A stretch of 64,000 nt of DNA, from contig JAKQBN010000055.1 in NCBI GenBank assembly GCA_029559475.1, positions 92,031-156,030 on the forward strand, in the 5' to 3' direction. This document shows positions 10,964 through 23,323 of the stretch, in pieces. Made by a program: the position numbers and the translations under genes. Source of the stretch: a bacterium (lineage in GTDB: Bacteria; UBA4055). Position 1 is the stretch's first letter, and each line of letters opens with the position of its first letter. The notes below the pieces were generated by a model that saw nothing but the letters and a program-made list of their open reading frames with translations, did not search any database and was not told the DNA's origin.

Positions 10964-11107
10964 TGTTACTCCGTAAATAATGTTCAAATTAAGTAAAATC
11001 CCGTTCAATTGCAATTTGAAAAACTTTTTTTAATAATTAAGAATTTCCTGTTTGCATTATCGGTTAATGTCAAATATATTCCTTTAAATAAAACTCAAAG
11101 GCTTATC

Positions 11108-11515
11108 ATGTGGACCTGTCCTGACTGCGGACGCAGTTTTAAGAACAAAAACCAGAAGCATTCATGCTCGGTTTTTGACGTGGCGGACCATTTCAATAAA
11201 AGGCCGCCTTTGATAAAGGATATATATAATAAACTGATAGATTCCGTCAGACCTTTCGCAGAATTCGACATAGGCGCGGTAAGATCGGCGATATTTTTCA
11301 GATCCGGAACGACGTATATTGAGATCAAGCCGAAAAAACAATGCCTGAGCATTTATTTCTATCTTGACGAGAAAACCGACGATACAGTAATAAAAAGCGG
11401 CCTTGAGATATCCGAACGCAGGATCGTTCACACCGCGGATCTTTTTAAACCGGACGACGTTAACAAAACGCTTTTAGCACATTTGAAAAGATCATACGAA
11501 CTGATATGTATGTAA
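11108..11515 (+). CDS. DUF5655-like zinc-finger hypothetical protein
   Basis: Likely start MWTCPDCGRSFKNKNQKHSC (CxxC...HxC zinc ribbon). The ORF track extends upstream to 11009. Confidence 0.45.
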   Translation: MWTCPDCGRSFKNKNQKHSCSVFDVADHFNKRPPLIKDIYNKLIDSVRPFAEFDIGAVRSAIFFRSGTTYIEIKPKKQCLSIYFYLDEKTDDTVIKSGLEISERRIVHTADLFKPDDVNKTLLAHLKRSYELICM

Positions 11516-11536: not shown

Positions 11537-14362
11537 ATGTGCATTCAATCGGAAGCGACTTTAGAGAAAAAACTCATCGAGCAGCTTGAAATTCAGGGCT
11601 ATGAAAAGGTCATTCTGCATGATGAAAAAGATCTTATTTCGAATTTTAAGACGCAGTTGGAAAAGCACAATAAGACGATTTTTTCGAAATCAGAGTTTAA
11701 TAAGATACTCAATCATTTAGACGGCGGAACGATATTCGAGAAATCGAAAAAGCTGCGCAATAAGTTCGAGCTTTACAGAGATGTCGGCACTCTTTCCTAC
11801 ATAGAATTTTTTAATACAGAAGAATGGTGCAAGAACGAATTTCAGGCATCAAACCAGATAAATTTGGCGGAAAGGTACAAGAACCGCTACGATGTGACGA
11901 TCCTGATAAACGGGCTGCCTCTCGTTCAGATCGAACTTAAAAGGCGCGGGATCGAGCTCAAAGAGGCATTCAATCAAATATGCCGCTATAAAGATCATTC
12001 GTTCAGGGGACTCTTTTTATACCTCCAGCTTTTCATCATCTCGAACGCGGTCAACACAAGATATTTTGCGAATAACAGAACGCTTAATTTTAAGCAGAGC
12101 TTCTGCTGGACGGATGAGAAGAATGAAAAATTCAACAGGCTGAACGAATTCGCCGATATTTTCCTGGAAAAATGCCATCTCGCCAAGATCATTTCAAAAT
12201 ATGTCGTCCTGAACGAATCCGATAAATTTTTAATGGTGCTCAGGCCATATCAATATTACGCGGCTGAAAAGATAATCAAGCGCGTAGCCGGAAAAGTTGA
12301 CCGGAACGGCTATATCTGGCACACGACCGGATCAGGCAAGACGCTCACTTCATTCAAGGCGAGCCAGATACTGACCGCTGACAAGGATGTGGACAAGGTC
12401 GTCTTTGTCGTTGACAGGAAAGATCTCGACTTCCAAACCATGAAGGAGTTCAATAAATTCTCGAAAGGCTCGGTTGATGCGACTGACGACACCATAATGC
12501 TCGTTAAACAGCTTTCCGACGAAAAGACGAAGCTTATCATAACAACGATACAGAAGCTCAACAATGCGGTCAGCAGGGTCAAATTCAACAATAAACTCGG
12601 CGACGTATCTAATAAGCGTATAATATTTATTTTTGACGAATGCCACAGGAGCCAGTTCGGCGAAACCCACAAAAGGATAAAAGATTATTTTAAGAACAGG
12701 CTTTTCTTCGGCTTTACGGGCACTCCGATATTCGAGGAGAACAGCGTAGGGTTTACGACTACGAAAGATCTTTTCGGGTCATGCCTGCACAAATATATCA
12801 TCAAGGACGCAATAGACGACGATAATGTGCTCGGTTTTTCCGTCGAGTACTATTCCACTTTCAGGTCAAAACTTCTAAAGGAAGAGAACGGGGATGATCT
12901 CGACGTGGATGAAATGGATAAGGTAAAAGGCATCAACAAAGATGAGGTGTTTTCAGCGGATGTCAGGCTGTCAAACATAGTTGATTTTATCATAAAGAAT
13001 CACGACAGAAAGACATATAACAAGGAATACAACGCGATATTCGCGGTAAGCTCAATTGAGACGCTTTTAAAATACTATGAGCTTTTCAGGAAGAAAAAGC
13101 ATAACTTAAACATAGCGACGATCTTTTCATATCAGGCGAACGAGGAGCTTGAGGATCAATACGGCAACCATAACGAGAGAGAGAACTGGAGCATGGTGGC
13201 TGAGGAGAGAGCACCTTACGGCGATAAGCAGGTTCATTCGAGAGAAAAGCTCGATCTGATCGTGAACGATTATAACAAAACTTTCAAGACGAACTTCGAC
13301 CTGAACAAGGACAACGGCTTCAACGCATATTTTGTGGATGTTTCCAAAAAGGTGAAGGAAAAGAAGATAGACATTCTACTTGTGGTCAACATGTTCTTAA
13401 CGGGATTCGACAGCGTTTTCACCAATACTCTGTATGTGGATAAGAACCTGCGCTATCACGGGCTTATTCAGGCATTTTCGAGAACGAACAGGGTGCTTGG
13501 GGAAAAGAAGAAATACGGCAATATCGTCTGCTTCAGAAACCTCAAGAAGAGAACAGACGAAGCGATAGTTTTATTTTCTAATCCCGATGCGATAGAAACC
13601 GTTTTAATGAAAGCCTACACGGAATACGCTGCAGATTTTAACAAAGCTCTCGAAGAGCTAAAAAACATCACACCGACAATAGATTCGGTTGACAAGCTCG
13701 AAGGCGATGAGCAGAAAGCACTTTTCGTCAAAGCTTTCAGGAACCTTTTACGGATCATGAACAGGCTTGTGACCTTCACCGAATTCAAATATGACGATCT
13801 GACCATTACAAGGCAGGAATTTGAGGATTACAGGAGCAAATATTTAGACATCCGCGACGAAACGAAAGACCCTGATAAGGAATCTATCTTAAAAGACCTC
13901 GATTTTGAGGTCGAACTTGTGCGCAGGGACGATATCAATGTGGATTATATCTTAAAGCTGTTAAAAGACCTCGACATGAACGATTCCGGATTTGTTAAAG
14001 ACGTGGAATTTATCTTAAAGACCATGGAAGGCTCGGACGAACTCCGCAGCAAGCGCGAACTGATCGAAAGGTTCATTAAGGAAAACCTGCCGGAATTAGG
14101 CACAGACGCGAATGTGGAGGAAGAATTCGACAAATTTATCTCGGTCGAAAAGGAAAAAGAGATAGGGGAGATGATAAGATCAGAAAAGCTGAACAAAGAA
14201 CTCGTTTACGCAGTGGTCGAGGAATATGAATTTTCGAACAAATTCCAGCGCGATAAGATCAAATCGGCACTCGTCGGCAACCTTAAACTCTCGGAACGGA
14301 AAAGAAAGATCGAACAATTGGAAAACAGCATAGAAAGCATCGTGAATAAATATAAATGGTAG
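11537..14362 (+). CDS. hsdR: Type I restriction enzyme R subunit (HsdR)
   Basis: 941 aa. N-terminal HsdR region (LEKKLIEQLEIQGYE), helicase motif I HTTGSGKT, DEAH-like FIFDECHRS, and a C-terminal helical domain. Confidence 0.9.
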   Translation: MCIQSEATLEKKLIEQLEIQGYEKVILHDEKDLISNFKTQLEKHNKTIFSKSEFNKILNHLDGGTIFEKSKKLRNKFELYRDVGTLSYIEFFNTEEWCKNEFQASNQINLAERYKNRYDVTILINGLPLVQIELKRRGIELKEAFNQICRYKDHSFRGLFLYLQLFIISNAVNTRYFANNRTLNFKQSFCWTDEKNEKFNRLNEFADIFLEKCHLAKIISKYVVLNESDKFLMVLRPYQYYAAEKIIKRVAGKVDRNGYIWHTTGSGKTLTSFKASQILTADKDVDKVVFVVDRKDLDFQTMKEFNKFSKGSVDATDDTIMLVKQLSDEKTKLIITTIQKLNNAVSRVKFNNKLGDVSNKRIIFIFDECHRSQFGETHKRIKDYFKNRLFFGFTGTPIFEENSVGFTTTKDLFGSCLHKYIIKDAIDDDNVLGFSVEYYSTFRSKLLKEENGDDLDVDEMDKVKGINKDEVFSADVRLSNIVDFIIKNHDRKTYNKEYNAIFAVSSIETLLKYYELFRKKKHNLNIATIFSYQANEELEDQYGNHNERENWSMVAEERAPYGDKQVHSREKLDLIVNDYNKTFKTNFDLNKDNGFNAYFVDVSKKVKEKKIDILLVVNMFLTGFDSVFTNTLYVDKNLRYHGLIQAFSRTNRVLGEKKKYGNIVCFRNLKKRTDEAIVLFSNPDAIETVLMKAYTEYAADFNKALEELKNITPTIDSVDKLEGDEQKALFVKAFRNLLRIMNRLVTFTEFKYDDLTITRQEFEDYRSKYLDIRDETKDPDKESILKDLDFEVELVRRDDINVDYILKLLKDLDMNDSGFVKDVEFILKTMEGSDELRSKRELIERFIKENLPELGTDANVEEEFDKFISVEKEKEIGEMIRSEKLNKELVYAVVEEYEFSNKFQRDKIKSALVGNLKLSERKRKIEQLENSIESIVNKYKW

Positions 14363-14369
14363 GCAATAA

Positions 14370-15917
14370 ATGACAAAGCAGAAGCTCGAACGGAAATTAT
14401 GGGACATAGCGGACACTTTACGCGGAAATATGGGTGCGGATGAATTCAGGGACTATATTCTCGGCTTTATTTTTTATAAATTCTTATCGGAAAAGATCGA
14501 AAAATTCGTTTCAGATGAGCTTAAATCGGACAAATTGAGCTTTGAAGAGGCTATGAAGGATAAAGAGCTTTCGCATGACTTAAAAGAGGAATGTATCGAA
14601 GATATGGGCTTTTTTATCGAACCGGCAAACTTATTCAGCAGGATAGCGGAAAGGGCAAAGAACAGAGAGTTTATTATTGAAGATCTCGGCCGCGCTTTAA
14701 AATCGGTAGAGGAAGCCACCATCGGGCATAAGAGCGAGGAGGATTTCGCGGGGCTTTTTGAGGATGTTGATCTTACTTCGACAAAGCTCGGAAGAACGGT
14801 TGAACAGAAGAACAAGCTCATTTCGGAAGTTATCAAGCACATAGCGGAAGTTGATTTCAGGCTTGAGGATACGGAGGCGGATGTTCTCGGCGACGCTTAT
14901 GAATATCTGATCTCACAGTTCGCGAGCGGAGCGGGAAAGAAAGCGGGAGAGTTCTATACGCCCCAGCAGGTATCAAAAATACTGGCAAAGATCGTCACTA
15001 CGGGCAAGACAAGGCTAAAATCTGCTTATGACCCAACATGCGGCTCGGGATCTTTACTTTTGAGGGTATCGAAGGAATGTAAAGTATCGGACTTCTACGG
15101 GCAGGAATTAAACACCACCACTTTCAACCTGGCGAGAATGAATATGATTCTCCATTCGGTCAAATACAACGATTTTCACATAACGCAGGGAGACACTTTA
15201 GAAGAACCGCACGACCTCGACAAACGCTTTGAGGCAGTGGTAGCCAATCCGCCATTCTCCGCGCACTGGGCGGCAAACCAGACCTTCTTATCGGACGAAA
15301 GATTCAGCCCGTACGGAAAACTCGCGCCCAAAACAAAGGCGGACTTCGCATTCGTTCAGCACATGCTCTATCAGCTTGACGAAAACGGAACAATGGCAAT
15401 AGTCTTACCTCACGGAGTACTATTCAGAGGAGCAGCGGAAGGCGAGATCAGAAAATACATCATAGAGGAAAAAAACTGGCTCGATGCCGTCATCGGACTA
15501 CCCGCGAACATCTTTTACGGAACATCAATACCCACAGTCATACTAGTATTCAAAAAATGCAGAACAGAATCCGACAGCATACACTTCATAGATGCAAGCC
15601 GGTCTTACGAAAAAGCCAAAAATCAGAACAATTTACGCGATGAAGATGTCGAAAAGATCATAAGCACATACAGGAACAGAACTCAGGAAGAAAAATACTC
15701 GCACTCAGCCTCAATAGAACAGATCAGGCAGAACGACTACAACCTAAACATTCCCAGATATGTCGATACATTCGAAGAGGAAGACGAAATTGACCTCGAT
15801 AAGATCGCGCAGGAACTCAAAAACATCGAAGCTGACATAAAACTCACAGACAAAAAGATCATCGCGCAGTGCAAAGAACTCGGAATCACCCCGCCCGTGT
15901 TTGGAGGAGAAAAATGA
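14370..15917 (+). CDS. hsdM: Type I R-M system N6-adenine DNA methyltransferase subunit (HsdM)
   Basis: 515 aa. HsdM N-terminal domain (KLWDIADTLRG), SAM motif DPTCGSGSLL and catalytic VVANPPFS (NPPF). Confidence 0.9.
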   Translation: MTKQKLERKLWDIADTLRGNMGADEFRDYILGFIFYKFLSEKIEKFVSDELKSDKLSFEEAMKDKELSHDLKEECIEDMGFFIEPANLFSRIAERAKNREFIIEDLGRALKSVEEATIGHKSEEDFAGLFEDVDLTSTKLGRTVEQKNKLISEVIKHIAEVDFRLEDTEADVLGDAYEYLISQFASGAGKKAGEFYTPQQVSKILAKIVTTGKTRLKSAYDPTCGSGSLLLRVSKECKVSDFYGQELNTTTFNLARMNMILHSVKYNDFHITQGDTLEEPHDLDKRFEAVVANPPFSAHWAANQTFLSDERFSPYGKLAPKTKADFAFVQHMLYQLDENGTMAIVLPHGVLFRGAAEGEIRKYIIEEKNWLDAVIGLPANIFYGTSIPTVILVFKKCRTESDSIHFIDASRSYEKAKNQNNLRDEDVEKIISTYRNRTQEEKYSHSASIEQIRQNDYNLNIPRYVDTFEEEDEIDLDKIAQELKNIEADIKLTDKKIIAQCKELGITPPVFGGEK

Positions 15918-17035
15918 AATATGATAAACTTATAGAAATACTTGAGACAACTCATTCAGATATGCAGTATCAGGCTTTCAGATCCGTTGATATTGCGTTA
16001 ATTATCCGTAACTGGCTGTTCGGATTTTATCTGGTCGAATATGAGCAGAACGGTGAAGACAGGGCTGAATACGGCGCAAGGCTGATTGAAAATATCTCCC
16101 AAGATTTAAGAAACAAAGGTGTCAAAGGCGTTTCACCCACAAATCTGAAAAAGGACAGAGAGTTTTATATTGAGTATAAACAAATTCGACAGACAGTGTC
16201 CGTCGAATCTTTGGTTCAGCCTCAAAAAAAAGCAACCTCAGGCACAAATATCCAAATTCGACAGTCAGTGACCGTCGAATTGGCAAAACAATTCAAATTA
16301 AGCTGGACGCATTATGTTAGTCTGTTGACCATTGACGATATAAATGAAAGAAAATTCTACGAGATAGAATCGATAAACAATTCGTGGGGCGTAAGAGAAC
16401 TCAAAAGACAGATCGCTTCTTCGTTGTATCAGCGGCTTTCAGTCAGTAAGAATAAGGCTAAATTGAAACAGCTGTCTCAAAAAGGTCAGATCATTGAAAA
16501 ACCTGAAGATTTCATAAAAGATCCGTTTATACTTGAATTTGCCGGAATAAAAGAAAAGAGCCGGTACTCAGAATATGATCTTGAAACAGCGCTTATAAAC
16601 AAACTGGAAATGTTCCTTTTAGAGCTTGGCAAAGGCTTTTTATTCGAGGCAAGACAGAAAAGATTCACATTTGACGATGACCATTATTATGTTGATCTCG
16701 TATTTTACAACAGACTGCTTAAATGTTATGTTCTGATTGATCTCAAGCGCGATAAACTTACGCATCAGGATCTCGGTCAGATGCAGATGTATGTGAACTA
16801 TTTTGACAGATATGTTAAGCTTAAAGATGAAAATCCGACAGTCGGGATCGTATTGTGCCACAGGAAAAATGACGCTTTAGTAGAACTCACACTCCCTGAA
16901 AATTCTAATATATTCGCTTCAAAATACAAATTATATTTACCGACAAAGGAAGAATTAAAACGGCAGCTTGTAAAAGAAATAGGTATGGTCAAAGAAGAAA
17001 TGGCACTTTACGGAACTCAGCGGAAAGGAGAATAA
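15914..17035 (+). CDS. DUF1016/YhcG-like PD-(D/E)XK nuclease-domain protein embedded in the Type I R-M operon
   Basis: ATG at 15914 overlaps the hsdM stop (ATGA). The C-terminus carries a PD-(D/E)XK-like core (YYVDLVFYN ... YVLIDLKRD) and the N-terminal helical DUF1016_N-like region. Confidence 0.65.
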   Translation: MKYDKLIEILETTHSDMQYQAFRSVDIALIIRNWLFGFYLVEYEQNGEDRAEYGARLIENISQDLRNKGVKGVSPTNLKKDREFYIEYKQIRQTVSVESLVQPQKKATSGTNIQIRQSVTVELAKQFKLSWTHYVSLLTIDDINERKFYEIESINNSWGVRELKRQIASSLYQRLSVSKNKAKLKQLSQKGQIIEKPEDFIKDPFILEFAGIKEKSRYSEYDLETALINKLEMFLLELGKGFLFEARQKRFTFDDDHYYVDLVFYNRLLKCYVLIDLKRDKLTHQDLGQMQMYVNYFDRYVKLKDENPTVGIVLCHRKNDALVELTLPENSNIFASKYKLYLPTKEELKRQLVKEIGMVKEEMALYGTQRKGE

Positions 17036-17887
17036 ATGAAATCAGATTTTCAGAAATACTTGAACAAACAGAACAGCGGAGCATTAAACGACTTTGACGG
17101 ACTTTCACCCGACACAATGCACAACATTCTGTATTCATCCTTCCAGAAAAACGGCCTGATCCGGATTAACGCGGACATATCGGCTGAAGCTATAAATCAG
17201 GTGCCTGTCTTCAAGCTCGTCAAACATTTTATGCGGATACTTGAGCGTGAAAAACAGATAAAGCTCACACAGGCCGAATACCTGCCTCCAAAGTATGTGA
17301 AGGAACTTTACGAAAGCACCGTACTCAAAGATGACGCGGTTGAAAGTGGAATAGTAAAGCTTACAGGCGAAAAAGATGTCATTATCATATTTGTTGCCCG
17401 CATTCTGGCCAAGTTATGCGGATATACAAAATTGAGGAACAATGTTATAACTATAACAAAAGCAGGCGAACAGGCACTAACCGACGATCGGGAGCTATAT
17501 TTCGGGTTAATGGACGCTCTCATATCTAAATTCAACTGGGGATTTGAATCCGTCAGACAGGACGACGGTTTCATCCAAAGGTCAGTCGGCTACACTTTAT
17601 ACCTTCTCAAAAAGTACGGGAACGAATACAGGGAATCAAGATATTACTACAACAAGTTCTTTAAAGCTTTCCCCGCCTCAATGAACGCGTTCGATTTCGA
17701 TCCCGATCCAAAATATAAGACCATGTCTCACTGGTGGGCTTACCGTAACAGAATATTCAGAACATACCTGACATACATGGGCGCGGTCGAATACGAGATC
17801 ATCTATAATAAAGAGGAACACACCGAGACCGATCAGGTCAGAAAAACAAAATTGTTCGATGAAATATTCACAATAAACATAAAATAA
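17036..17887 (+). CDS. hypothetical protein (283-aa ORFan) embedded between the YhcG-like gene and hsdS
   Basis: Long ORF in operon context. ATG directly abuts the upstream stop and the gene lies 11 nt before hsdS. No recognisable motif. Confidence 0.5.
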   Translation: MKSDFQKYLNKQNSGALNDFDGLSPDTMHNILYSSFQKNGLIRINADISAEAINQVPVFKLVKHFMRILEREKQIKLTQAEYLPPKYVKELYESTVLKDDAVESGIVKLTGEKDVIIIFVARILAKLCGYTKLRNNVITITKAGEQALTDDRELYFGLMDALISKFNWGFESVRQDDGFIQRSVGYTLYLLKKYGNEYRESRYYYNKFFKAFPASMNAFDFDPDPKYKTMSHWWAYRNRIFRTYLTYMGAVEYEIIYNKEEHTETDQVRKTKLFDEIFTINIK

Positions 17888-17898
17888 GAACAGAAATA

Positions 17899-18996
17899 AT
17901 GAAAAGCCATTCAGATAAAAACACAAAACAACCAAAACTCCGCTTCCCCGGTTTCACAGAAGAGTGGCAGGAAAAAAGACTGGGGGAAATTGGGAAAATA
18001 ACTACGGGTAGCACTCCGAGCACTTTCGTAGAAAAATACTATAACGGGGAATACCTATTCGTATCTCCTTTCGATATTAGTGATAAGAAATATATTTTTA
18101 CTACACAAAAAACGCTTACTGAAGAGGGATTTAAGAAAACAAGAAATATCAAAAAATGCAGTGTATTATTTGTTTGTATAGGTTCGACAATAGGAAAAAT
18201 TGCCGTAGCGGGTACGGATTTAGCGACAAATCAACAAATCAATGCAATAACATGCGAGCATGAAGCCCAGAACGAATTTGTTTATTACTCGTTATTGAAG
18301 AAAGCAGATCAAATAAAACTCATGGCTGGAGAGCAAGCCGTTCCGATAATAAATAAATCAAACTTTGAAACTGTTAAGTTACCAATGACTTCACCAGCAG
18401 AACAAAAGAAGATCTCAGAATTCCTTTCCGACATAGACACAAAGATCGAAAAACTCACCCGCAAAAAAGAACTCACCGAGCAGTACAAAAAAGGAGCAAT
18501 GCAAAAAATCTTCTCGCAGAAAATCCGCTTCAAAGATGATAACGGAAAAAATTATCCTGACTGGCAAGAAAAGAGGCTGGGTGAGGTGGCTACGATAAAA
18601 AGAGGAGCAAGCTCTCAATATTTAAAATATGTTAATAATTCTTCTGAAGGTGTAAGGCTGATTAGAATCACTGATTTCTTAGAAAGTGAACCAGTATTTA
18701 TCAAGGAGAGTCTAGAATTAGATAGGTTCAAACTAAAAAAAGATGATATCCTTATTGCAGGTACTGGAGCAACAGCAGGTATTACTTTCAAAGTACCAGA
18801 TAAATTTATCGGTATGGTTTATAGCTATAACGTTCCTCAGATCACTCCTGTTTCATGTGATCCTAATTATTTAATTCAATTTCTCAAGTCCGATTCGATC
18901 TCTAAACAACAAGAAGGTTTATTTACAGGTAATGCACAGCATTTTTTAGACATAAAGGCAATTTCAAACTTGAAATTACCTTTACAATGTGCATAA
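17899..18996 (+). CDS. hsdS: Type I R-M specificity subunit (HsdS), C-terminally truncated at the IS21 junction
   Basis: Two target-recognition domains, each preceded by the conserved LRFPGFTEEWQEKRLGE / IRFKDDNGKNYPDWQEKRLGE segment. Central conserved helix VKLPMTSPAEQKKISEFL...KIF. The protein ends at LKLPLQCA*, where the C-terminal conserved helix should begin. The stop TAA at 18994-18996 abuts the IS terminus. Confidence 0.8.
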   Translation: MKSHSDKNTKQPKLRFPGFTEEWQEKRLGEIGKITTGSTPSTFVEKYYNGEYLFVSPFDISDKKYIFTTQKTLTEEGFKKTRNIKKCSVLFVCIGSTIGKIAVAGTDLATNQQINAITCEHEAQNEFVYYSLLKKADQIKLMAGEQAVPIINKSNFETVKLPMTSPAEQKKISEFLSDIDTKIEKLTRKKELTEQYKKGAMQKIFSQKIRFKDDNGKNYPDWQEKRLGEVATIKRGASSQYLKYVNNSSEGVRLIRITDFLESEPVFIKESLELDRFKLKKDDILIAGTGATAGITFKVPDKFIGMVYSYNVPQITPVSCDPNYLIQFLKSDSISKQQEGLFTGNAQHFLDIKAISNLKLPLQCA

Positions 18997-19115
18997 TTCT
19001 TGCGAAAGTGACCAGTCAATTCCTGTCAAAGTGTTACAGATAATCTGATATAAAATAAAAGTTTTCCACTTCAAGAACTCCTATTATATTCGCTCCGAAC
19101 AAAAGAGGAGCGGAT

Positions 19116-20747
19116 ATGTCAAACAGGAGGCTTGATATGATAAATGTTCAACACCTGATACGGCAACTGGCTGAAGGCAAGTCGTATCGGGTAATAGGCA
19201 CAAATCTGGCGATATCGCCGACAACTGTCAAGAAATATGCGAAGTATATCAGAAAGAACGGTCTTAATGTCGAAGAGCTTAAGGGAAAACCGCCATCCGA
19301 GCTGGAGACTATTATAGACATAGCGGATCCTGCAGAAAGGCAACGAGCGGAAGAAGCTTTAACATGTATCAGGAAACATGAAAGTTCTTTGGTTGCAAGG
19401 CGGCTGACACGAAAAGATGTCTATGAAAAATATAGAATAGATATAGAATCTCCTCTAAGCTACAGCCGTTTCTGCGTAAAAGTAGAAGATGAACTTAAGA
19501 AAAGCGGCGCAACAATGCACTTTAATCACAAGCCAGGCGACAAGCTGTTCGTTGACTTTGCCGGAGACAAGCTGTGTTATTATGAAAAAGAGACAGGCGA
19601 GAAGATATCTGTTGAGGTCTTTGTGGCTGTTCTCGGACACAGTCAGAAGACCTTTGTCTTTGCGGTACATAGCCAGTGTAAAAACGATTTTATAGAGTCA
19701 CTTAAGCGTGCGTTCGAATACTACGGAGGTATACCATGCGCGATAGTACCGGACAATCTGAAATCAGGCGTAAATAAAGCAAGCTTATATGAACCTGAAA
19801 TGAACAGGAGCTTCAAACACTTTTGTGAACATTACGGCTGTTTTGCTTATCCCGCAAGGCCGCGTTCTCCAAAAGACAAGAGCCTTGTCGAGAATGCCGT
19901 AGGCAGAATGTACAGAGACATTTACACGCACATAAAAGCCTGTAAATACTACTCGATGGAAGAGTTGAATGCGGCTATACTTGAAAAGCTTGAAGAATCG
20001 AACAATAAACCGTTCCAGCGTCGTGATTACAGCAGAAATGATCTTTTTGAAAGTAATGAAAAGGACTGCCTTAAGCCGTTGCCTTCAAACGAATATGAGA
20101 CAGTAGATTTTTACAGTGCCACAGTCAGGCGCGATTATCATATCTGGTTCAGGCCTGACAAGCACCAGTACAGCGTACCTTATGAATACATAGGCAAAAC
20201 ATTAAAAGTTATTTACAATACAGATACCGTAGAGATATTTTACGGATACACAAGAATAGCCTTGCATAAGAGAAACAGATCAAGATACGGCTTTACCACA
20301 AACCCTGAACATATGCCGGCAAATCATAAATACATGGCTGATCTTACTCCTGAAAATCTGATGAAGAAAGCTGAAGAAATAGGCGTTTATACATCATCTG
20401 TAATCGAAAAAATACTCGGATCAGGCAACTATTATGATCAGAGAATAAGAAGCTCAAGAGGAGTACTGTCGCTTGCAAATAAGCTCGGAAAAGAAATTAT
20501 GGAACAGTGCTGTAAACGGGCTTTATCATACGGTATTTATAATTACAGACAGCTAAGAAACATAGCGGATATGAAGCTGTATCTTGAAGAAGATATAACC
20601 GTAACCGGCGGGTATATAGACAACCATCAAAACAAGAGAGGTGTTGAATATTATTTTGCGACACTTTTACAGGAATCGTGTGACACTTTGACAAGAATCA
20701 GCTACAATAATACAGAAATACAAACGAAAACGGAGGCGGAATGTTAA
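19116..20747 (+). CDS. istA: IS21-family transposase IstA
   Basis: 543 aa. N-terminal HTH (SYRVIGTNLAISPTTVKKY) and a DDE integrase core (FVDFAG...CAIVPDNLKSG...ENAVGRMYRD...) typical of IstA. Confidence 0.85.
   Translation: MSNRRLDMINVQHLIRQLAEGKSYRVIGTNLAISPTTVKKYAKYIRKNGLNVEELKGKPPSELETIIDIADPAERQRAEEALTCIRKHESSLVARRLTRKDVYEKYRIDIESPLSYSRFCVKVEDELKKSGATMHFNHKPGDKLFVDFAGDKLCYYEKETGEKISVEVFVAVLGHSQKTFVFAVHSQCKNDFIESLKRAFEYYGGIPCAIVPDNLKSGVNKASLYEPEMNRSFKHFCEHYGCFAYPARPRSPKDKSLVENAVGRMYRDIYTHIKACKYYSMEELNAAILEKLEESNNKPFQRRDYSRNDLFESNEKDCLKPLPSNEYETVDFYSATVRRDYHIWFRPDKHQYSVPYEYIGKTLKVIYNTDTVEIFYGYTRIALHKRNRSRYGFTTNPEHMPANHKYMADLTPENLMKKAEEIGVYTSSVIEKILGSGNYYDQRIRSSRGVLSLANKLGKEIMEQCCKRALSYGIYNYRQLRNIADMKLYLEEDITVTGGYIDNHQNKRGVEYYFATLLQESCDTLTRISYNNTEIQTKTEAEC
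20659..20698 (+). repeat. internal copy of the IS21 right-end double repeat, inside the istA 3' coding region
   Basis: gcgacacttttacaggaatcgtgtgacactttgacaagaatca is near-identical to the right terminus ctgtgacactttaaacaggaatcagtgggacactttgacaagaat. Confidence 0.6.
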
Positions 20748-21493
20748 ACGAAAATACATTGTCAAAAATGAAAGAGATGAACCTGACAGGAATGTATGAT
20801 GCATTTAAGCTAACTCTTAGCCTGAATGACTATAAGAAAATGACTTGCGATCAGCTAGCGGCATCTCTTGTTGACGCAGAATACGATAACAGGCGAAACA
20901 AAAGACTTGCCCAAAGGTTAAGTACAGCTAAGTTGCGTTATCCGGCATCAGCTGAACAGGTTGACTTTAATGCGGATAGAAAGCTCGATAGAAACCTGTT
21001 CATGAGACTTACAGACTGCAACTACATCAGACAGGCTGAGAATGTTATAATCAGCGGTATGACGGGCACAGGTAAAAGCTATATAGCCTGCGCATTAGGA
21101 CATCAGGCTTGTATAGCAGGATATAAAGTTATATATCACAACTTCAACAAACTCATGGCTAAGCTAGTAATGTCAAGAGGAGACAACTCGTATCTAAAGG
21201 AAATAAATAAGATAGCCGGCTACGATCTTTTAATCATAGATGACTTCGGCCTACAAACAATGGATCATGCCTCAAACATATCACTCCTTGAAATACTCGA
21301 AGACCGCTACGGCTCGAAATCTACGGTCATAGCTTCTCAGATCCCGCCTGAAAACTGGTATGCTCTCTTCAATAGCTCAACTATAGCTGATGCCTGCTTA
21401 GACAGAATAATACATAATGCGCATAAAATGGATATTACAGGGGAATCTATGAGAAAGAATAAAAAGGTTGCAGCGAAGAAAAAGAATGGTTAA
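20741..21493 (+). CDS. istB: IS21-family helper ATPase IstB
   Basis: 250 aa. Walker A GMTGTGKSY, Walker B LLIIDDFG. Overlaps the istA end by 7 nt, as is typical for IS21. Confidence 0.9.
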   Translation: MLNENTLSKMKEMNLTGMYDAFKLTLSLNDYKKMTCDQLAASLVDAEYDNRRNKRLAQRLSTAKLRYPASAEQVDFNADRKLDRNLFMRLTDCNYIRQAENVIISGMTGTGKSYIACALGHQACIAGYKVIYHNFNKLMAKLVMSRGDNSYLKEINKIAGYDLLIIDDFGLQTMDHASNISLLEILEDRYGSKSTVIASQIPPENWYALFNSSTIADACLDRIIHNAHKMDITGESMRKNKKVAAKKKNG

Positions 21494-21529
21494 ATTTTAA
21501 CGGGTTCAGGAGGTGGAAACTGTGACACT

Positions 21530-23323
21530 TTAAACAGGAATCAGTGGGACACTTTGACAAGAATCTACACCTGTATAATTCTGGCTGGTTTGAGAAGTGC
21601 TAACATTTGAGTAGGATCGCTGGCTTGGGCTAAAAGTATAACTCGATTTACTCGGAGTTATAACTCCTGTCCAGATATCTGTTGGAACAGATAATGAATA
21701 ATCACCGTTTGAATCTGTTGTTGTTGATACTATTCCATTGGTTCCTGATAACGTTACACCGCTTATTGTTGCGCCTGAGCTGTTTGTGATCCTGCCTGAA
21801 ATTACATTTGATGATTCACTAAAATTTAATTTAAAAGAATACGGAAAAGCGAATGTGTTTGCTGTGGCAGTTCCTATGATTTTTAAATAAATGTCACTGT
21901 TGTATAACAAAGAATATGAGAACTGAATGTTAGTGCTAAATGTACCGAATTTAACTTGAACTAGGCTGCCATTATTATTCTCATATAAATAGTACGTATT
22001 CACACCTGAAGCGTTTGGATAAAGATTGACGGTGACACTACCTGGTTTGTTATTGATATATCTATACATATCTTGATCTGATGAACCGCCTCCTGATTGA
22101 ATAGTTACTGATCCATTATATTCTATATTGTTGCTTATCGTATATGCCAATTCTTTAGTTGATGGTTCATCCATTCCTCGGATTAAATGACGGTAAGCGT
22201 CACATTCATCATTATGCTCTAAATTTACATTTAAAGTGTCAGATATATTCAAAGGTACAATATTACCAGTTTCATTTCTTAAATACTGGCGACTATATAA
22301 AACACAGCCATCACCAGGATCTTGAGGAATTGGATTCAACCAGTTCGCTGGGTTCTCACCATCATGTGAATTAGAAGCTATCCAAGTATACCGAATATTT
22401 GGTGGTAATGGCATATTAGTATTATAACTAAACGAAGCACTACTTAAGTTGAGACCGACAATGTTCGAATTAATAGCACTATCGCAGTTGATGTCCCTAT
22501 TAAAATAATCATCCAATGAACTAGACCATTCTTTACCACCAAATAGATAAATTCCGTCTGCGCCAGCATCAAAAGAATATTTCAAATCTCGCATAGCTTC
22601 AGAATGTATATTTGGTGGTGTTTCAGATTTCTGATCGTAATACTTTGTATTAGAAGGATCGAATCCTGAGTTTGATCCAAGATGAGGTGTCCCTATAGTA
22701 ACTACTCGTGCAACTTTGTGTCCGTTTATGTTATCAGAAGGATTTACCCACCACTTATGATTAGTGCTTGTTGTACCGTCTATTGTTCTTTGGAGATATT
22801 CTCTTATAGCAAGGCCACCCATAGAATGCCCAACTAGTATTACTTTCTCCGAGTTCGTAAAATCGATTACTTCAGTTATCATTTTACTTAACGCATATCC
22901 CTGCTTAAAAATCGCCGATTCATTGCTATGGTCAAACTGATCATTCCACCACCCATCTGCTGCCTTTATTCTTTCTTCTTTGAAATTGATCGCAAAAATA
23001 TAAGAATCTGGATCCCAATCATACAAACTATAATTAAATCTTCGTGGTCCAAGTATTATTGTTTTATCACCATATACTGTATCAGACCATTTGACATCGT
23101 TTTCGAGCACAGAAGTATCGTTAGCATTATCGAAATTTAGTATAACATCATATGAATTTATGTTTCCCCAATCGTAATTACCACTATTCAAATAATTCAT
23201 CGTTTCTTGAAATGACTCATCGCTACCGACTAGTCCGTGAACGAAAATAATAGGATATGGAGGTTTTGCTCCATAAATTAATGTTGTTAACACGATAATG
23301 AGAATCAACAATATTTTCTTCAT
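21530..23323 (-). CDS. secreted lipase/esterase (alpha/beta hydrolase, PGAP1-like) with a C-terminal carboxypeptidase-regulatory-like domain. The C-terminus is supplied by the IS21 end.
   Basis: Signal peptide MKKILLILIIVLTTLIYGA. Nucleophile elbow ILVGHSMGGLAIREY. C-terminal ITNSSGATISGVTLSG...TTDSNGDYSLSVP is CarbopepD_reg-like. The last 11 codons (DSCQSVPLIPV*) are encoded by the IS21 right terminal repeat. Confidence 0.7.
   Translation of the reverse strand: MKKILLILIIVLTTLIYGAKPPYPIIFVHGLVGSDESFQETMNYLNSGNYDWGNINSYDVILNFDNANDTSVLENDVKWSDTVYGDKTIILGPRRFNYSLYDWDPDSYIFAINFKEERIKAADGWWNDQFDHSNESAIFKQGYALSKMITEVIDFTNSEKVILVGHSMGGLAIREYLQRTIDGTTSTNHKWWVNPSDNINGHKVARVVTIGTPHLGSNSGFDPSNTKYYDQKSETPPNIHSEAMRDLKYSFDAGADGIYLFGGKEWSSSLDDYFNRDINCDSAINSNIVGLNLSSASFSYNTNMPLPPNIRYTWIASNSHDGENPANWLNPIPQDPGDGCVLYSRQYLRNETGNIVPLNISDTLNVNLEHNDECDAYRHLIRGMDEPSTKELAYTISNNIEYNGSVTIQSGGGSSDQDMYRYINNKPGSVTVNLYPNASGVNTYYLYENNNGSLVQVKFGTFSTNIQFSYSLLYNSDIYLKIIGTATANTFAFPYSFKLNFSESSNVISGRITNSSGATISGVTLSGTNGIVSTTTDSNGDYSLSVPTDIWTGVITPSKSSYTFSPSQRSYSNVSTSQTSQNYTGVDSCQSVPLIPV

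What the first reader, a model, noticed from the sequence alone, without database searches (positions are those of the whole stretch)
15914..17887. Type I R-M operon carries two embedded cargo genes (DUF1016/YhcG-like PD-(D/E)XK protein + 283-aa ORFan) between hsdM and hsdS
The locus reads hsdR-hsdM-X-Y-hsdS with tight or overlapping junctions: ATGA overlap at hsdM/X, X stop abutting the Y start, and Y ending 11 nt before hsdS. Both inserted genes are therefore co-transcribed with the methylase and specificity subunits. X has a PD-(D/E)XK-like core (VDLVFY...IDLK). Y (17036-17887) has no recognisable family. In other R-M loci, genes placed between hsdM and hsdS are often accessory defence or anti-restriction-countering modules (e.g. 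anticodon nucleases). That makes the X+Y pair a candidate undescribed R-M-associated defence or regulatory module.
Basis: partly seen in the sequence, partly recalled or inferred. Interest (0 to 1): 0.7.

Follow-up and report, generated by a model that had tools for sequence, protein, structure and literature searches.

The report
Two separate cargo genes in restriction operon
A bacterial type I restriction-modification operon carries two inserted genes: a nuclease already listed as a candidate anti-phage gene, and a probable DNA-binding protein from a large uncharacterised family that turns up repeatedly in restriction operons and defence islands and is worth testing on its own.

Summary
The anatomy is real: hsdR-hsdM-X-Y-hsdS on the + strand, with an ATGA overlap at hsdM/X, the X stop abutting the Y start, and 11 nt between Y and hsdS.

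X is a YhcG/DUF1016 PD-(D/E)XK nuclease with an intact catalytic motif. It matches PADLOC candidate PDC-S02, so its embedding in type I R-M loci is already described.

Y is not an ORFan. It has 1331 representative homologs, labelled Pfam PF27146 Y4jL_N. It models confidently as a non-enzymatic protein containing winged-helix modules and is under purifying selection.

X+Y is not a fixed pair:
- In sister loci the X slot holds a non-orthologous or an internally deleted DUF1016 gene.
- X and Y have discordant divergence.
- Relic loci that lost hsdR, hsdM and X still keep an intact Y.

The Y family recurs in defence contexts:
- A 34%-identical homolog sits between hsdM and hsdS of an unrelated type I system, without DUF1016.
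- Other homologs lie next to RhuM (PDC-S05), Fic (PDC-S04) and AIPR genes.
- None of seven Y-family proteins scanned hits PADLOC v2.0.0.

In this window hsdS is truncated by an IS21-family element.

Verdict: known kind of feature (R-M-embedded cargo). X is already known. Y is a new, testable candidate of unknown mechanism.

The parts
11009..11515 (+). DUF5655 gene in the variable slot just upstream of hsdR. The related locus L001 has a DUF1016 gene at this position.
   Evidence: Pfam PF18899 E 1.1e-14. L001 gene table.
11537..14362 (+). hsdR, 941 aa, with an EcoR124-type C-terminal domain.
   Evidence: HSDR_N, SWI2_SNF2/ResIII, T1R_D3-like and EcoR124_C, all well above cut-off.
14370..15917 (+). 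hsdM, 515 aa.
   Evidence: N6_Mtase E 1.7e-111 and HsdM_N E 2e-21.
15914..17035 (+). X: YhcG/DUF1016 PD-(D/E)XK nuclease, 373 aa, matching PADLOC candidate PDC-S02. The ATG overlaps the hsdM stop (ATGA).
   Evidence: YhcG_C E 1.5e-53 and DUF1016_N E 1.1e-29. PDC-S02 E 3.2e-130. Junction read. NCBI names it 'PDDEXK nuclease domain-containing protein' HQO09126.1.
16646..16747 (+). Predicted catalytic core of X: E245 ... D261 ... D276-L-K278.
   Evidence: Motif positions located. The family motif E-D-E(I/L/V)K is described for YhcG in PMC1189080.
17036..17887 (+). Y: 283-aa protein of the Y4jL_N family containing winged-helix modules. It starts on the base after the X stop codon.
   Evidence: Junction read. 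Homologs. AF2 model pLDDT 83, pTM 0.82. Only partial winged-helix fold matches. dN/dS 0.11-0.27.
17899..18996 (+). hsdS, 365 aa. Both target-recognition domains are present, but the C-terminal conserved helix (about 45 aa) is missing. The stop codon is completed by the first base of the IS element.
   Evidence: Methylase_S with two stretches. Alignment with L001 hsdS. Junction sequence.
18996..21564 (+). IS21-family insertion sequence (istA 19116-20747, istB 20741-21493) with imperfect terminal inverted repeats of about 44 nt. It truncates hsdS.
   Evidence: Pfam rve/Mu-transpos_C_2 and IstB_IS21. Inverted repeats I1-I4. End sequences.

Best explanation
The interval holds two independent cargo genes that colonised the hsdM-hsdS junction of a type I R-M operon. 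They use its transcript, and the tight junctions suggest translational coupling to the neighbouring genes.

X is a YhcG/DUF1016 PD-(D/E)XK enzyme with an intact E-D-(D/E)xK site. Inferred: it is a Mg2+-dependent nuclease effector of the PDC-S02 type, acting on its own. Its trigger and substrate are unknown.

Y is a non-catalytic protein built around two winged-helix-like modules. The wing of the first module is strongly basic in the family consensus (KKRxNKLSLTKKG). Inferred: Y binds nucleic acid.

Y belongs to a large family (Pfam Y4jL_N). Its members sit as single genes inside type I R-M operons, next to other R-M-embedded candidate defence genes (RhuM, Fic, KilA-N, DUF1016, AIPR), or beside recombinases and IS elements.

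Most likely Y works autonomously as a DNA-binding accessory factor, either a sensor/regulator or a DNA-binding protective factor. I do not think it is a dedicated partner of X or a subunit of the R-M enzyme.

Shown here: gene order, family assignments, fold class, purifying selection, slot swapping, survival of Y after R-M decay, and recurrent embedding.

Inferred only: nuclease activity of X, DNA binding by Y, and any anti-phage role.
For: Independence of X and Y:
- Window vs L001: hsdR-hsdM is 92% and Y plus the hsdS 5' end is 90% nt-identical. The X slot has no nt similarity and holds a DUF1016 only 34% identical, with intergenic gaps of 114 and 87 nt.
- L025 has a 274-aa DUF1016 with the nuclease core deleted, followed by the start of Y (first 36 codons identical in protein; the contig ends there).
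- L037 vs L034: X has dS 0.10 but Y has dS 1.83.
- L034 keeps X and Y behind a 31-aa in-frame hsdR'-'hsdM fusion remnant.
- L005 keeps only an intact Y, flanked by hsdR 5' and hsdS pseudogene remnants. L034 vs L005 gives Y dN/dS 0.23.

Y family in R-M and defence contexts:
- P0173 (34% identical) lies between hsdM and hsdS of an unrelated EcoEI-type system (hsdM 33%, hsdR 26% identical to the window). That locus has KilA-N/PDC-S22 and no DUF1016.
- A Paludibacter homolog starts 6 nt after a RhuM gene, in an island with McrBC, AbiEii, AAA_15, Fic and RloB.
- A KSB1 homolog forms a Y-RhuM (PDC-S05) islet inside a V-ATPase operon.
- Another locus reads Fic (PDC-S04)-Y-AIPR.
- RhuM or DUF1016 lies within 0.6-2.8 kb of Y in L070, L073, L072 and L084.

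X.
Against: - In four loci of one clade, the same X ortholog (85-92% identical) directly precedes Y with junctions of 0, 2, -4 and -4 nt.
- In every locus of this clade that still has hsdM, Y follows some DUF1016 gene. A functional link is therefore not excluded.
- About 70 further loci with distant Y homologs show no hsd genes and no conserved neighbour, and many neighbours are housekeeping genes. The defence association is partial and was not tested against a proper genomic background.
- No experiment exists for any Y-family member. No paper mentions the family.
- DNA binding is inferred from fold class only.
- One PDC-S02 representative was among the candidates not reported to protect against T4, T5 or T7.
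Confidence: 0.55

Rival explanations
1. X and Y form a two-gene system. Y is the sensor, regulator or antitoxin-like partner that controls the DUF1016 nuclease. More generally, Y-family proteins would partner whichever effector gene sits next to them (DUF1016, RhuM, Fic).
For: - Abutting or overlapping X/Y junctions in the window, L037, L031 and L034.
- In this R-M clade, Y is preceded by a DUF1016 of three different subtypes wherever hsdM is still present.
- Distant Y homologs lie 6 nt after RhuM, 197 nt before RhuM, about 200 nt after Fic, or within 0.6-2.5 kb of DUF1016.
- Keeping Y after loss of X (L025, L005) is the pattern expected for an orphan antitoxin.
Against: - DUF1016 is a single-gene PADLOC candidate and occurs in R-M loci without Y.
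- Most Y homologs have no effector-like neighbour.
- L100 has Y between hsdM and hsdS with no DUF1016, RhuM or Fic immediately adjacent.
- X and Y have discordant dS.
- L001 pairs Y with a DUF1016 only 34% identical to X, across 87 nt.
- No X-Y, RhuM-Y or Fic-Y gene fusions were found among long family members.
Confidence: 0.15
2. Y is a passenger gene of mobile elements with no defence role. Its presence in the R-M operon reflects only that R-M islands are recombination hot spots.
For: - Family members are fused to PRiA4_ORF3, a plasmid ORF-type domain by its Pfam name.
- Neighbours include ISL3 transposases and integrases.
- One homolog sits in an IS-dense region with a group II intron.
- Plasmid copies lie next to a recombinase or integrase.
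- Pfam family name after Y4jL, which from memory is a Rhizobium symbiotic-plasmid ORF (not checked here).
Against: - Purifying selection holds, and Y stays intact in loci where everything around it decayed.
- Y occupies the same hsdM-hsdS slot in two unrelated type I systems.
- It is repeatedly adjacent to PDC-S02, S04, S05 and S22 genes.
- There are no phage-genome hits and only 1 hit in 2.9 million viral contigs.
Confidence: 0.2
3. Y is a regulator or accessory subunit of the type I R-M system itself. It would act like a C-protein controlling hsd transcription, or as a factor that modulates the HsdM2S methylase.
For: - Winged-helix fold typical of transcription factors.
- Y sits between hsdM and hsdS in two unrelated type I systems.
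- One JGI record calls a homolog 'predicted transcriptional regulator'.
Against: - Y stays intact and under purifying selection after hsdR, hsdM and hsdS are destroyed (L034, L005).
- Most family members have no R-M neighbour.
- Y (283 aa, several domains) is much larger than C-proteins, which from memory are about 80 aa.
Confidence: 0.08

Closest known systems
PADLOC PDC-S02 (YhcG/DUF1016 single-gene phage-defence candidate; Payne et al. 2024, bioRxiv 10.1101/2024.01.29.577857)
   Same: X matches the PDC-S02 HMMs (best E 3.2e-130, near full length) and lies embedded in a type I R-M operon. PDC candidates were defined from genes embedded in BREX, DISARM and type I R-M systems.
   Different: Nothing substantive. 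X is an ordinary member. Function is unproven: one representative was among the candidates not reported to protect against T4, T5 or T7.
R-M-embedded cargo genes in general (PrrC in type I R-M; RhuM, GIY-YIG and DUF1016 genes between hsd core genes)
   Same: Extra genes sit between hsdM and hsdS on the same strand and are co-transcribed. This slot is known to hold cargo.
   Different: Neither X nor Y has the ABC-ATPase or anticodon-nuclease domains of PrrC/RloC; Pfam finds none. Y is not in PADLOC v2.0.0.
Winged-helix DNA-binding proteins (MarR, PadR and Fur regulators; tandem-wH proteins such as Wadjet JetB; wH-based recognition domains of FokI and BpuJI)
   Different: No whole-protein match (best Foldseek E 0.05, TM<=0.26). 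No sequence-profile match to any solved structure (best E 0.07-0.23). Y also has a conserved N-terminal FDGLSP motif region not seen in those families.
Pfam PF27146 Y4jL_N, an uncharacterised family
   Same: Homologs of Y down to 30% identity carry this precomputed label.
   Different: The window protein itself has no precomputed hit and the model is not in the local Pfam copy. No literature was found on the family.

Membership tests
Type I restriction-modification system | HsdR with nuclease N-domain, SF2 motor and C-terminal domain; HsdM N6-adenine methyltransferase | tested here: met
   HSDR_N, SWI2_SNF2/ResIII, T1R_D3-like and EcoR124_C; N6_Mtase E 1.7e-111 and HsdM_N.
Type I restriction-modification system | Complete HsdS: two target-recognition domains plus central and C-terminal conserved helices | tested here: not met
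   Both TRDs and the central region are present. The C-terminal conserved region (about 45 aa in L001 hsdS) is absent, and the ORF ends at the IS21 left end at 18996. No second hsdS in the window.
YhcG / DUF1016 (PF06250 + PF17761) | Both domains score above the Pfam gathering thresholds | tested here: met
   YhcG_C 181.3 bits (cut-off 32.5); DUF1016_N 103.7 bits (cut-off 32.8).
YhcG / DUF1016 (PF06250 + PF17761) | PD-(D/E)XK catalytic motif E ... D ... (D/E)xK | tested here: met
   E245, D261 and D276-L-K278 located. Motif definition from PMC1189080. The L025 paralog lacks this core.
YhcG / DUF1016 (PF06250 + PF17761) | Nuclease activity | not testable with these tools
No solved structure of a homolog by sequence search.
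PADLOC PDC-S02 | Match to the PDC-S02 HMMs | tested here: met
   PDLC04807 E 3.2e-130, residues 2-363 against profile 12-346 of 351.
PADLOC PDC-S02 | Anti-phage activity | not testable with these tools
   From the literature only: a PDC-S02 representative was not among the four of eight candidates that protected E. coli B against T4, T5 or T7.
Pfam PF27146 Y4jL_N | Match to the family HMM | tested here: inconclusive
   The model is absent from the local Pfam copy and the window protein has no precomputed label. Homologs at 78%, 60% and 30-36% identity do carry it. Y matches them at E 1e-33 to 1e-143.
   No such Pfam, PADLOC or NCBIfam hit for X or Y.
   No Pfam hit even at E<=10. hhalign of the Y family profile against the window HsdS gives probability 0.17%.
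MarR/PadR-type wHTH transcription factors | Sequence-profile match and whole-domain architecture | tested here: not met
   Partial fold similarity only. No Pfam or PDB sequence match.
Two-gene toxin-antitoxin-like or sensor-effector module (X+Y) | Co-inheritance of the two genes as a unit across lineages | tested here: not met
   The pair is conserved only in one clade. The X slot is swapped or degraded, divergence is discordant, and Y occurs alone.

The most novel reading that the evidence does not exclude
Y4jL_N-family winged-helix proteins form a widespread anti-phage or anti-MGE defence (or defence-regulating) family that current catalogues miss. The family has at least 1300 clusters at 50% identity and is mostly found in Bacteroidota, KSB1, Cloacimonadota and Delongbacteria. 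Its members would act as single-gene DNA-binding factors that repeatedly colonise type I R-M operons and small defence islets, possibly sensing invading DNA for neighbouring effectors such as DUF1016, RhuM or Fic.
Probability: 0.25. Interest if true: 0.6.

Novelty: new member of a known kind. Interest (0 to 1): 0.42.

Why it matters
R-M operons are known to shelter other defence genes, and more than half of such embedded genes remain unexplained. X adds nothing new.

Y points to a large, unnamed family that has several features of a defence or accessory gene but is not in PADLOC v2.0.0:
- recurrent embedding in unrelated type I systems;
- adjacency to PDC-S02, S04, S05 and S22 genes;
- retention under purifying selection when the surrounding R-M decays.

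Y has no enzymatic domain. If it proved to be a defence gene, it would be a defence component without a recognisable enzymatic domain. If it has no such role, the locus still gives a clean natural series showing how cassettes inside an R-M operon are swapped, degraded and outlive the operon.

Tried and rejected
- Local Pfam, NCBIfam, PHROGs and PADLOC scans of Y found nothing.
- Profile searches of the Y family against PDB sequences gave only PezA at E 0.07-0.23, treated as chance.
- The afdb50 library was unavailable.
- The 40-sequence alignment was too diverse for the search for related loci, so the 11-sequence alignment was used instead.
- I looked for a conserved neighbour among 20 distant loci by all-vs-all blastp. 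None was found beyond same-genus synteny.
- I looked for Rosetta-stone fusions of the Y domain to DUF1016, RhuM, Fic or KilA-N. None was found; only PRiA4_ORF3, TPR and unknown extensions appeared.
- Phage genomes gave no hit. Viral contigs gave one hit. Plasmids gave three hits next to a recombinase or integrase.
- Literature searches for Y4jL and PF27146 returned nothing. Searches on pRiA4b ORF-3 returned nothing informative.
- Rejected: Y as an hsdS or hsdM fragment.
- Rejected: Y related to X.
- Rejected: internal promoters or terminators separating X and Y from the operon. Terminator-like sites were at the level of shuffled controls; promoter-like sites exceeded it region-wide (28 vs 16.1 +/- 4.3), with 4 weak + strand matches inside X and Y.
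- I did not attempt an X-Y co-fold. The structure tool takes single chains from the window only, and only four paired sequences exist.
Full report
**1. Observation**

ORF listing and direct reading of the junctions confirm the layout on the + strand:
- hsdR 11537-14362, hsdM 14370-15917, X 15914-17035, Y 17036-17887, hsdS 17899-18996.
- The X ATG and the hsdM TGA form an ATGA overlap.
- The Y ATG follows the X TAA with no spacer.
- Eleven nucleotides separate the Y stop from the hsdS ATG.

Pfam assigns hsdR, hsdM and hsdS unambiguously. It assigns X to YhcG_C (E 1.5e-53) plus DUF1016_N (E 1.1e-29). The PD-(D/E)XK residues E245, D261 and D276-x-K278 are present, matching the family motif in PMC1189080.

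A consensus scan finds no + strand terminator-like site between the end of hsdM and hsdS. The few weak promoter-like matches inside X and Y are unremarkable. Co-transcription is therefore plausible, but it was not shown.

hsdS ends 'LKLPLQCA*', where the homolog in L001 continues for about 45 residues through the C-terminal conserved helix. The break coincides with the left end of an IS21-family element. This element spans 18996-21564, encodes istA/istB, and has imperfect terminal repeats of about 44 nt. No other hsdS is present in the window.

**2. What X is**

X matches PADLOC PDC-S02 at E 3.2e-130. PDC candidates were defined by Payne et al. from genes embedded in BREX, DISARM and type I R-M systems.

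Linkage of DUF1016 to type I R-M had been noted several times:
- in 2005;
- in 2012;

In one study a PDC-S02 representative was among the candidates not reported to protect E. coli B from T4, T5 or T7. X is therefore an ordinary member of an already catalogued, functionally unproven candidate family.

**3. What Y is**

The local Pfam, NCBIfam, PHROGs and PADLOC libraries give no hit. Even so, Y is not an ORFan.
- A word-indexed search found 11 homologs.
- An exhaustive HMMER search of 1.84 billion representatives found 1331 homologs at E<=1e-3 and 789 at E<=1e-10. Most are about 280 aa.
- A profile search returned 359 proteins. Nearly all carry the precomputed Pfam label PF27146 'Y4jL_N' and are annotated as hypothetical. 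They come mainly from Bacteroidota, KSB1, Cloacimonadota and similar lineages.
- Some members carry an N-terminal PRiA4_ORF3 domain or TPR repeats. None is fused to DUF1016, RhuM, Fic or KilA-N.

AlphaFold2 gives a confident model (pLDDT 83, pTM 0.82).
- By my reading of its secondary-structure elements, it has an N-terminal helical region carrying the conserved FDGLSP motif, followed by two helix-helix-helix-beta-hairpin modules.
- Only T78, G195 and Y204 are invariant across 40 diverse homologs. The first wing is strongly basic in the family consensus.

I therefore read Y as a non-enzymatic, probably nucleic-acid-binding protein. This is an inference from fold class.

Y is not a fragment of HsdS (hhalign probability 0.17%) and is not related to X.

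**4. Is X+Y a module?**

Related loci form a natural series.

| Locus | Arrangement |
|---|---|
| Window, L037 | hsdR-hsdM-X-Y-hsdS |
| L031 / L009 / L033 | hsdM (64% aa identity)-X (92%)-Y (87%)-hsdS, no adjacent hsdR |
| L001 (UBA4055) | hsdR-hsdM 92% and Y 90% nt-identical to the window. The X slot has no nt similarity and holds a DUF1016 only 34% identical, with gaps of 114 and 87 nt. A third DUF1016 type lies upstream of hsdR. |
| L025 | The X slot holds a 274-aa derivative of that third DUF1016 type, with the nuclease core deleted. It is followed by the start of Y (first 36 codons; the contig ends there). |
| L034 | hsdR and hsdM collapsed to a 31-aa in-frame fusion remnant. X (86%) and Y (64%) are intact, followed by hsdS fragments. 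|
| L005 / L039 | Only Y (60%) is intact. It is flanked by the hsdR 5' region and an hsdS pseudogene made of the N-terminal 27 codons joined to the C-terminal helix. |

Selection and divergence:
- Y is under purifying selection throughout (dN/dS 0.11-0.27), including between the two relic loci (0.23).
- X has dN/dS 0.06-0.13.
- X and Y have discordant histories. Between L037 and L034, X has dS 0.10 and Y has dS 1.83.

The tight X/Y junction is thus conserved in one clade (gaps of 0, 2, -4 and -4 nt). However, the two genes are exchanged, lost and retained independently, and Y is the only constant element of the locus family.

**5. Wider context of the Y family**

Among 22 genome loci and 54 metagenome or viral loci found by pattern search, hsd genes accompany Y only in the close clade. 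Distant loci share no conserved neighbour.

Their neighbours are a mix:
- housekeeping genes;
- mobile-element genes such as integrases and ISL3 transposases;

Six further family members had Pfam-annotated contexts, and these give a sharper picture:
- P0173 (34% identical to Y) lies between hsdM and hsdS of an unrelated EcoEI-type type I system (hsdM 33%, hsdR 26% identical to the window). That locus has KilA-N/PDC-S22 between hsdR and hsdM and no DUF1016.
- P0246 (Paludibacter) starts 6 nt after a RhuM gene, inside an island with McrBC, AbiEii, AAA_15, Fic and RloB.
- P0221 (KSB1) forms a Y-RhuM (PDC-S05) islet inserted in a V-ATPase operon.
- P0210 sits in Fic (PDC-S04)-Y-67 aa-AIPR (AbiU-like).
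- P0275 sits in an IS-dense region with HigB/HTH and a PDDEXK_2 gene.
- P0250 has no notable neighbours.

RhuM or DUF1016 also lies within 0.6-2.8 kb of Y homologs in L070, L073, L072 and L084. None of seven Y-family proteins tested hits PADLOC v2.0.0 above noise. There are no phage-genome hits. Three plasmid copies sit beside a recombinase or integrase.

The association with R-M-embedded candidate genes is recurrent and arises in independent lineages. It is also partial, and I could not score it against a proper genomic background.

**6. Mechanism**

Best-supported reading (confidence 0.55): X and Y are two independent cargo genes sharing the R-M transcript.
- X is a stand-alone PD-(D/E)XK nuclease effector (inferred).
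- Y is an autonomous, non-catalytic DNA-binding accessory protein from a family that belongs to the same gene pool as RhuM, Fic, KilA-N and DUF1016. This pool colonises type I R-M operons and defence islets.
- Whether Y senses, regulates or directly blocks foreign DNA cannot be told from sequence.

Rivals:
- An X-Y sensor/effector or antitoxin/toxin pair (0.15).
- A mobilome passenger with no defence role (0.20).
- A regulator or accessory subunit of the R-M enzyme (0.08).

**7. Comparison and novelty**

The kind of feature, cargo genes embedded in type I R-M operons, is established. X is already known as PDC-S02.

Y is a new member of that kind. It belongs to an uncharacterised Pfam family that is absent from PADLOC v2.0.0 and from the searchable literature. 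It shows independent embedding in two unrelated type I systems, and it persists after the R-M genes decay.

This makes Y a reasonable single-gene candidate for experimental testing, but nothing here shows a defence function. Interest is moderate (0.42).

The window proteins are HQO09126.1 and HQO09127.1 from a MAG labelled 'Clostridiales bacterium'. The closest related contigs are labelled Candidatus Delongbacteria or UBP11.

Noticed in passing
window 18996-21564 (and hsdS 17899-18996; minus-strand ORF 21530-23323): An IS21-family element (istA/istB, imperfect terminal repeats of about 44 nt with internal repeated sites) truncates hsdS by about 45 residues. It also abuts the 3' end of a 597-aa lipase-like gene on the opposite strand, which suggests an IS-associated deletion. 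The R-M system in this genome is probably impaired.
   Followed up: partly
window 11009-11515; L001 1274-2314: The slot just upstream of hsdR is also variable. It holds a DUF5655 gene here (weak PDC-S18 hit, E 0.0011) and a full-length DUF1016 gene in the related UBA4055 locus.
   Followed up: partly
window 15918-16985 vs L001 6705-8000 and L025 2156-2921: The DUF1016 cassette is exchanged between conserved flanks (hsdM 3' end and the DUF1016 C-terminal tail or Y start). Three DUF1016 subtypes, 30-46% identical to one another, occupy the same slot in sister loci. One of them (L025) is an internal-deletion derivative lacking the nuclease core.
   Followed up: yes
L034 6788-6883; L005 7860-7925 and 8864-9050: Clean decay intermediates of the R-M locus. 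One is a 31-aa in-frame fusion of the first 16 codons of hsdR to the last codons (about 15) of hsdM. The other is an hsdS pseudogene joining the N-terminal 27 codons to the C-terminal helix, with both TRDs deleted.
   Followed up: yes
L100 1-7201: An unrelated EcoEI-type type I R-M locus carries KilA-N (PDC-S22) between hsdR and hsdM. It also carries a Y-family gene plus a 43-aa ORF between hsdM and hsdS.
   Followed up: partly
L103 5001-6936: A two-gene islet, Y-family gene plus RhuM/PDC-S05, is inserted inside a V-type ATPase operon of a KSB1 bacterium, between the A/B subunit genes and the D subunit gene.
   Followed up: no
L001 10199-15871: Downstream of the related R-M locus lies a defence-island-like run: FGE-sulfatase, DUF1883-TIR, an AAA_15/AAA_21 ATPase and two unannotated genes. 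This segment is absent from the window, where the IS21 element sits.
   Followed up: no
proteins P0022, P0076, P0091, P0116; P0024, P0085, P0139, P0141, P0154: Y-family domains occur fused to an N-terminal PRiA4_ORF3 domain, or to TPR-like regions at either end. P0054 and P0071 have extensions with no Pfam match.
   Followed up: partly
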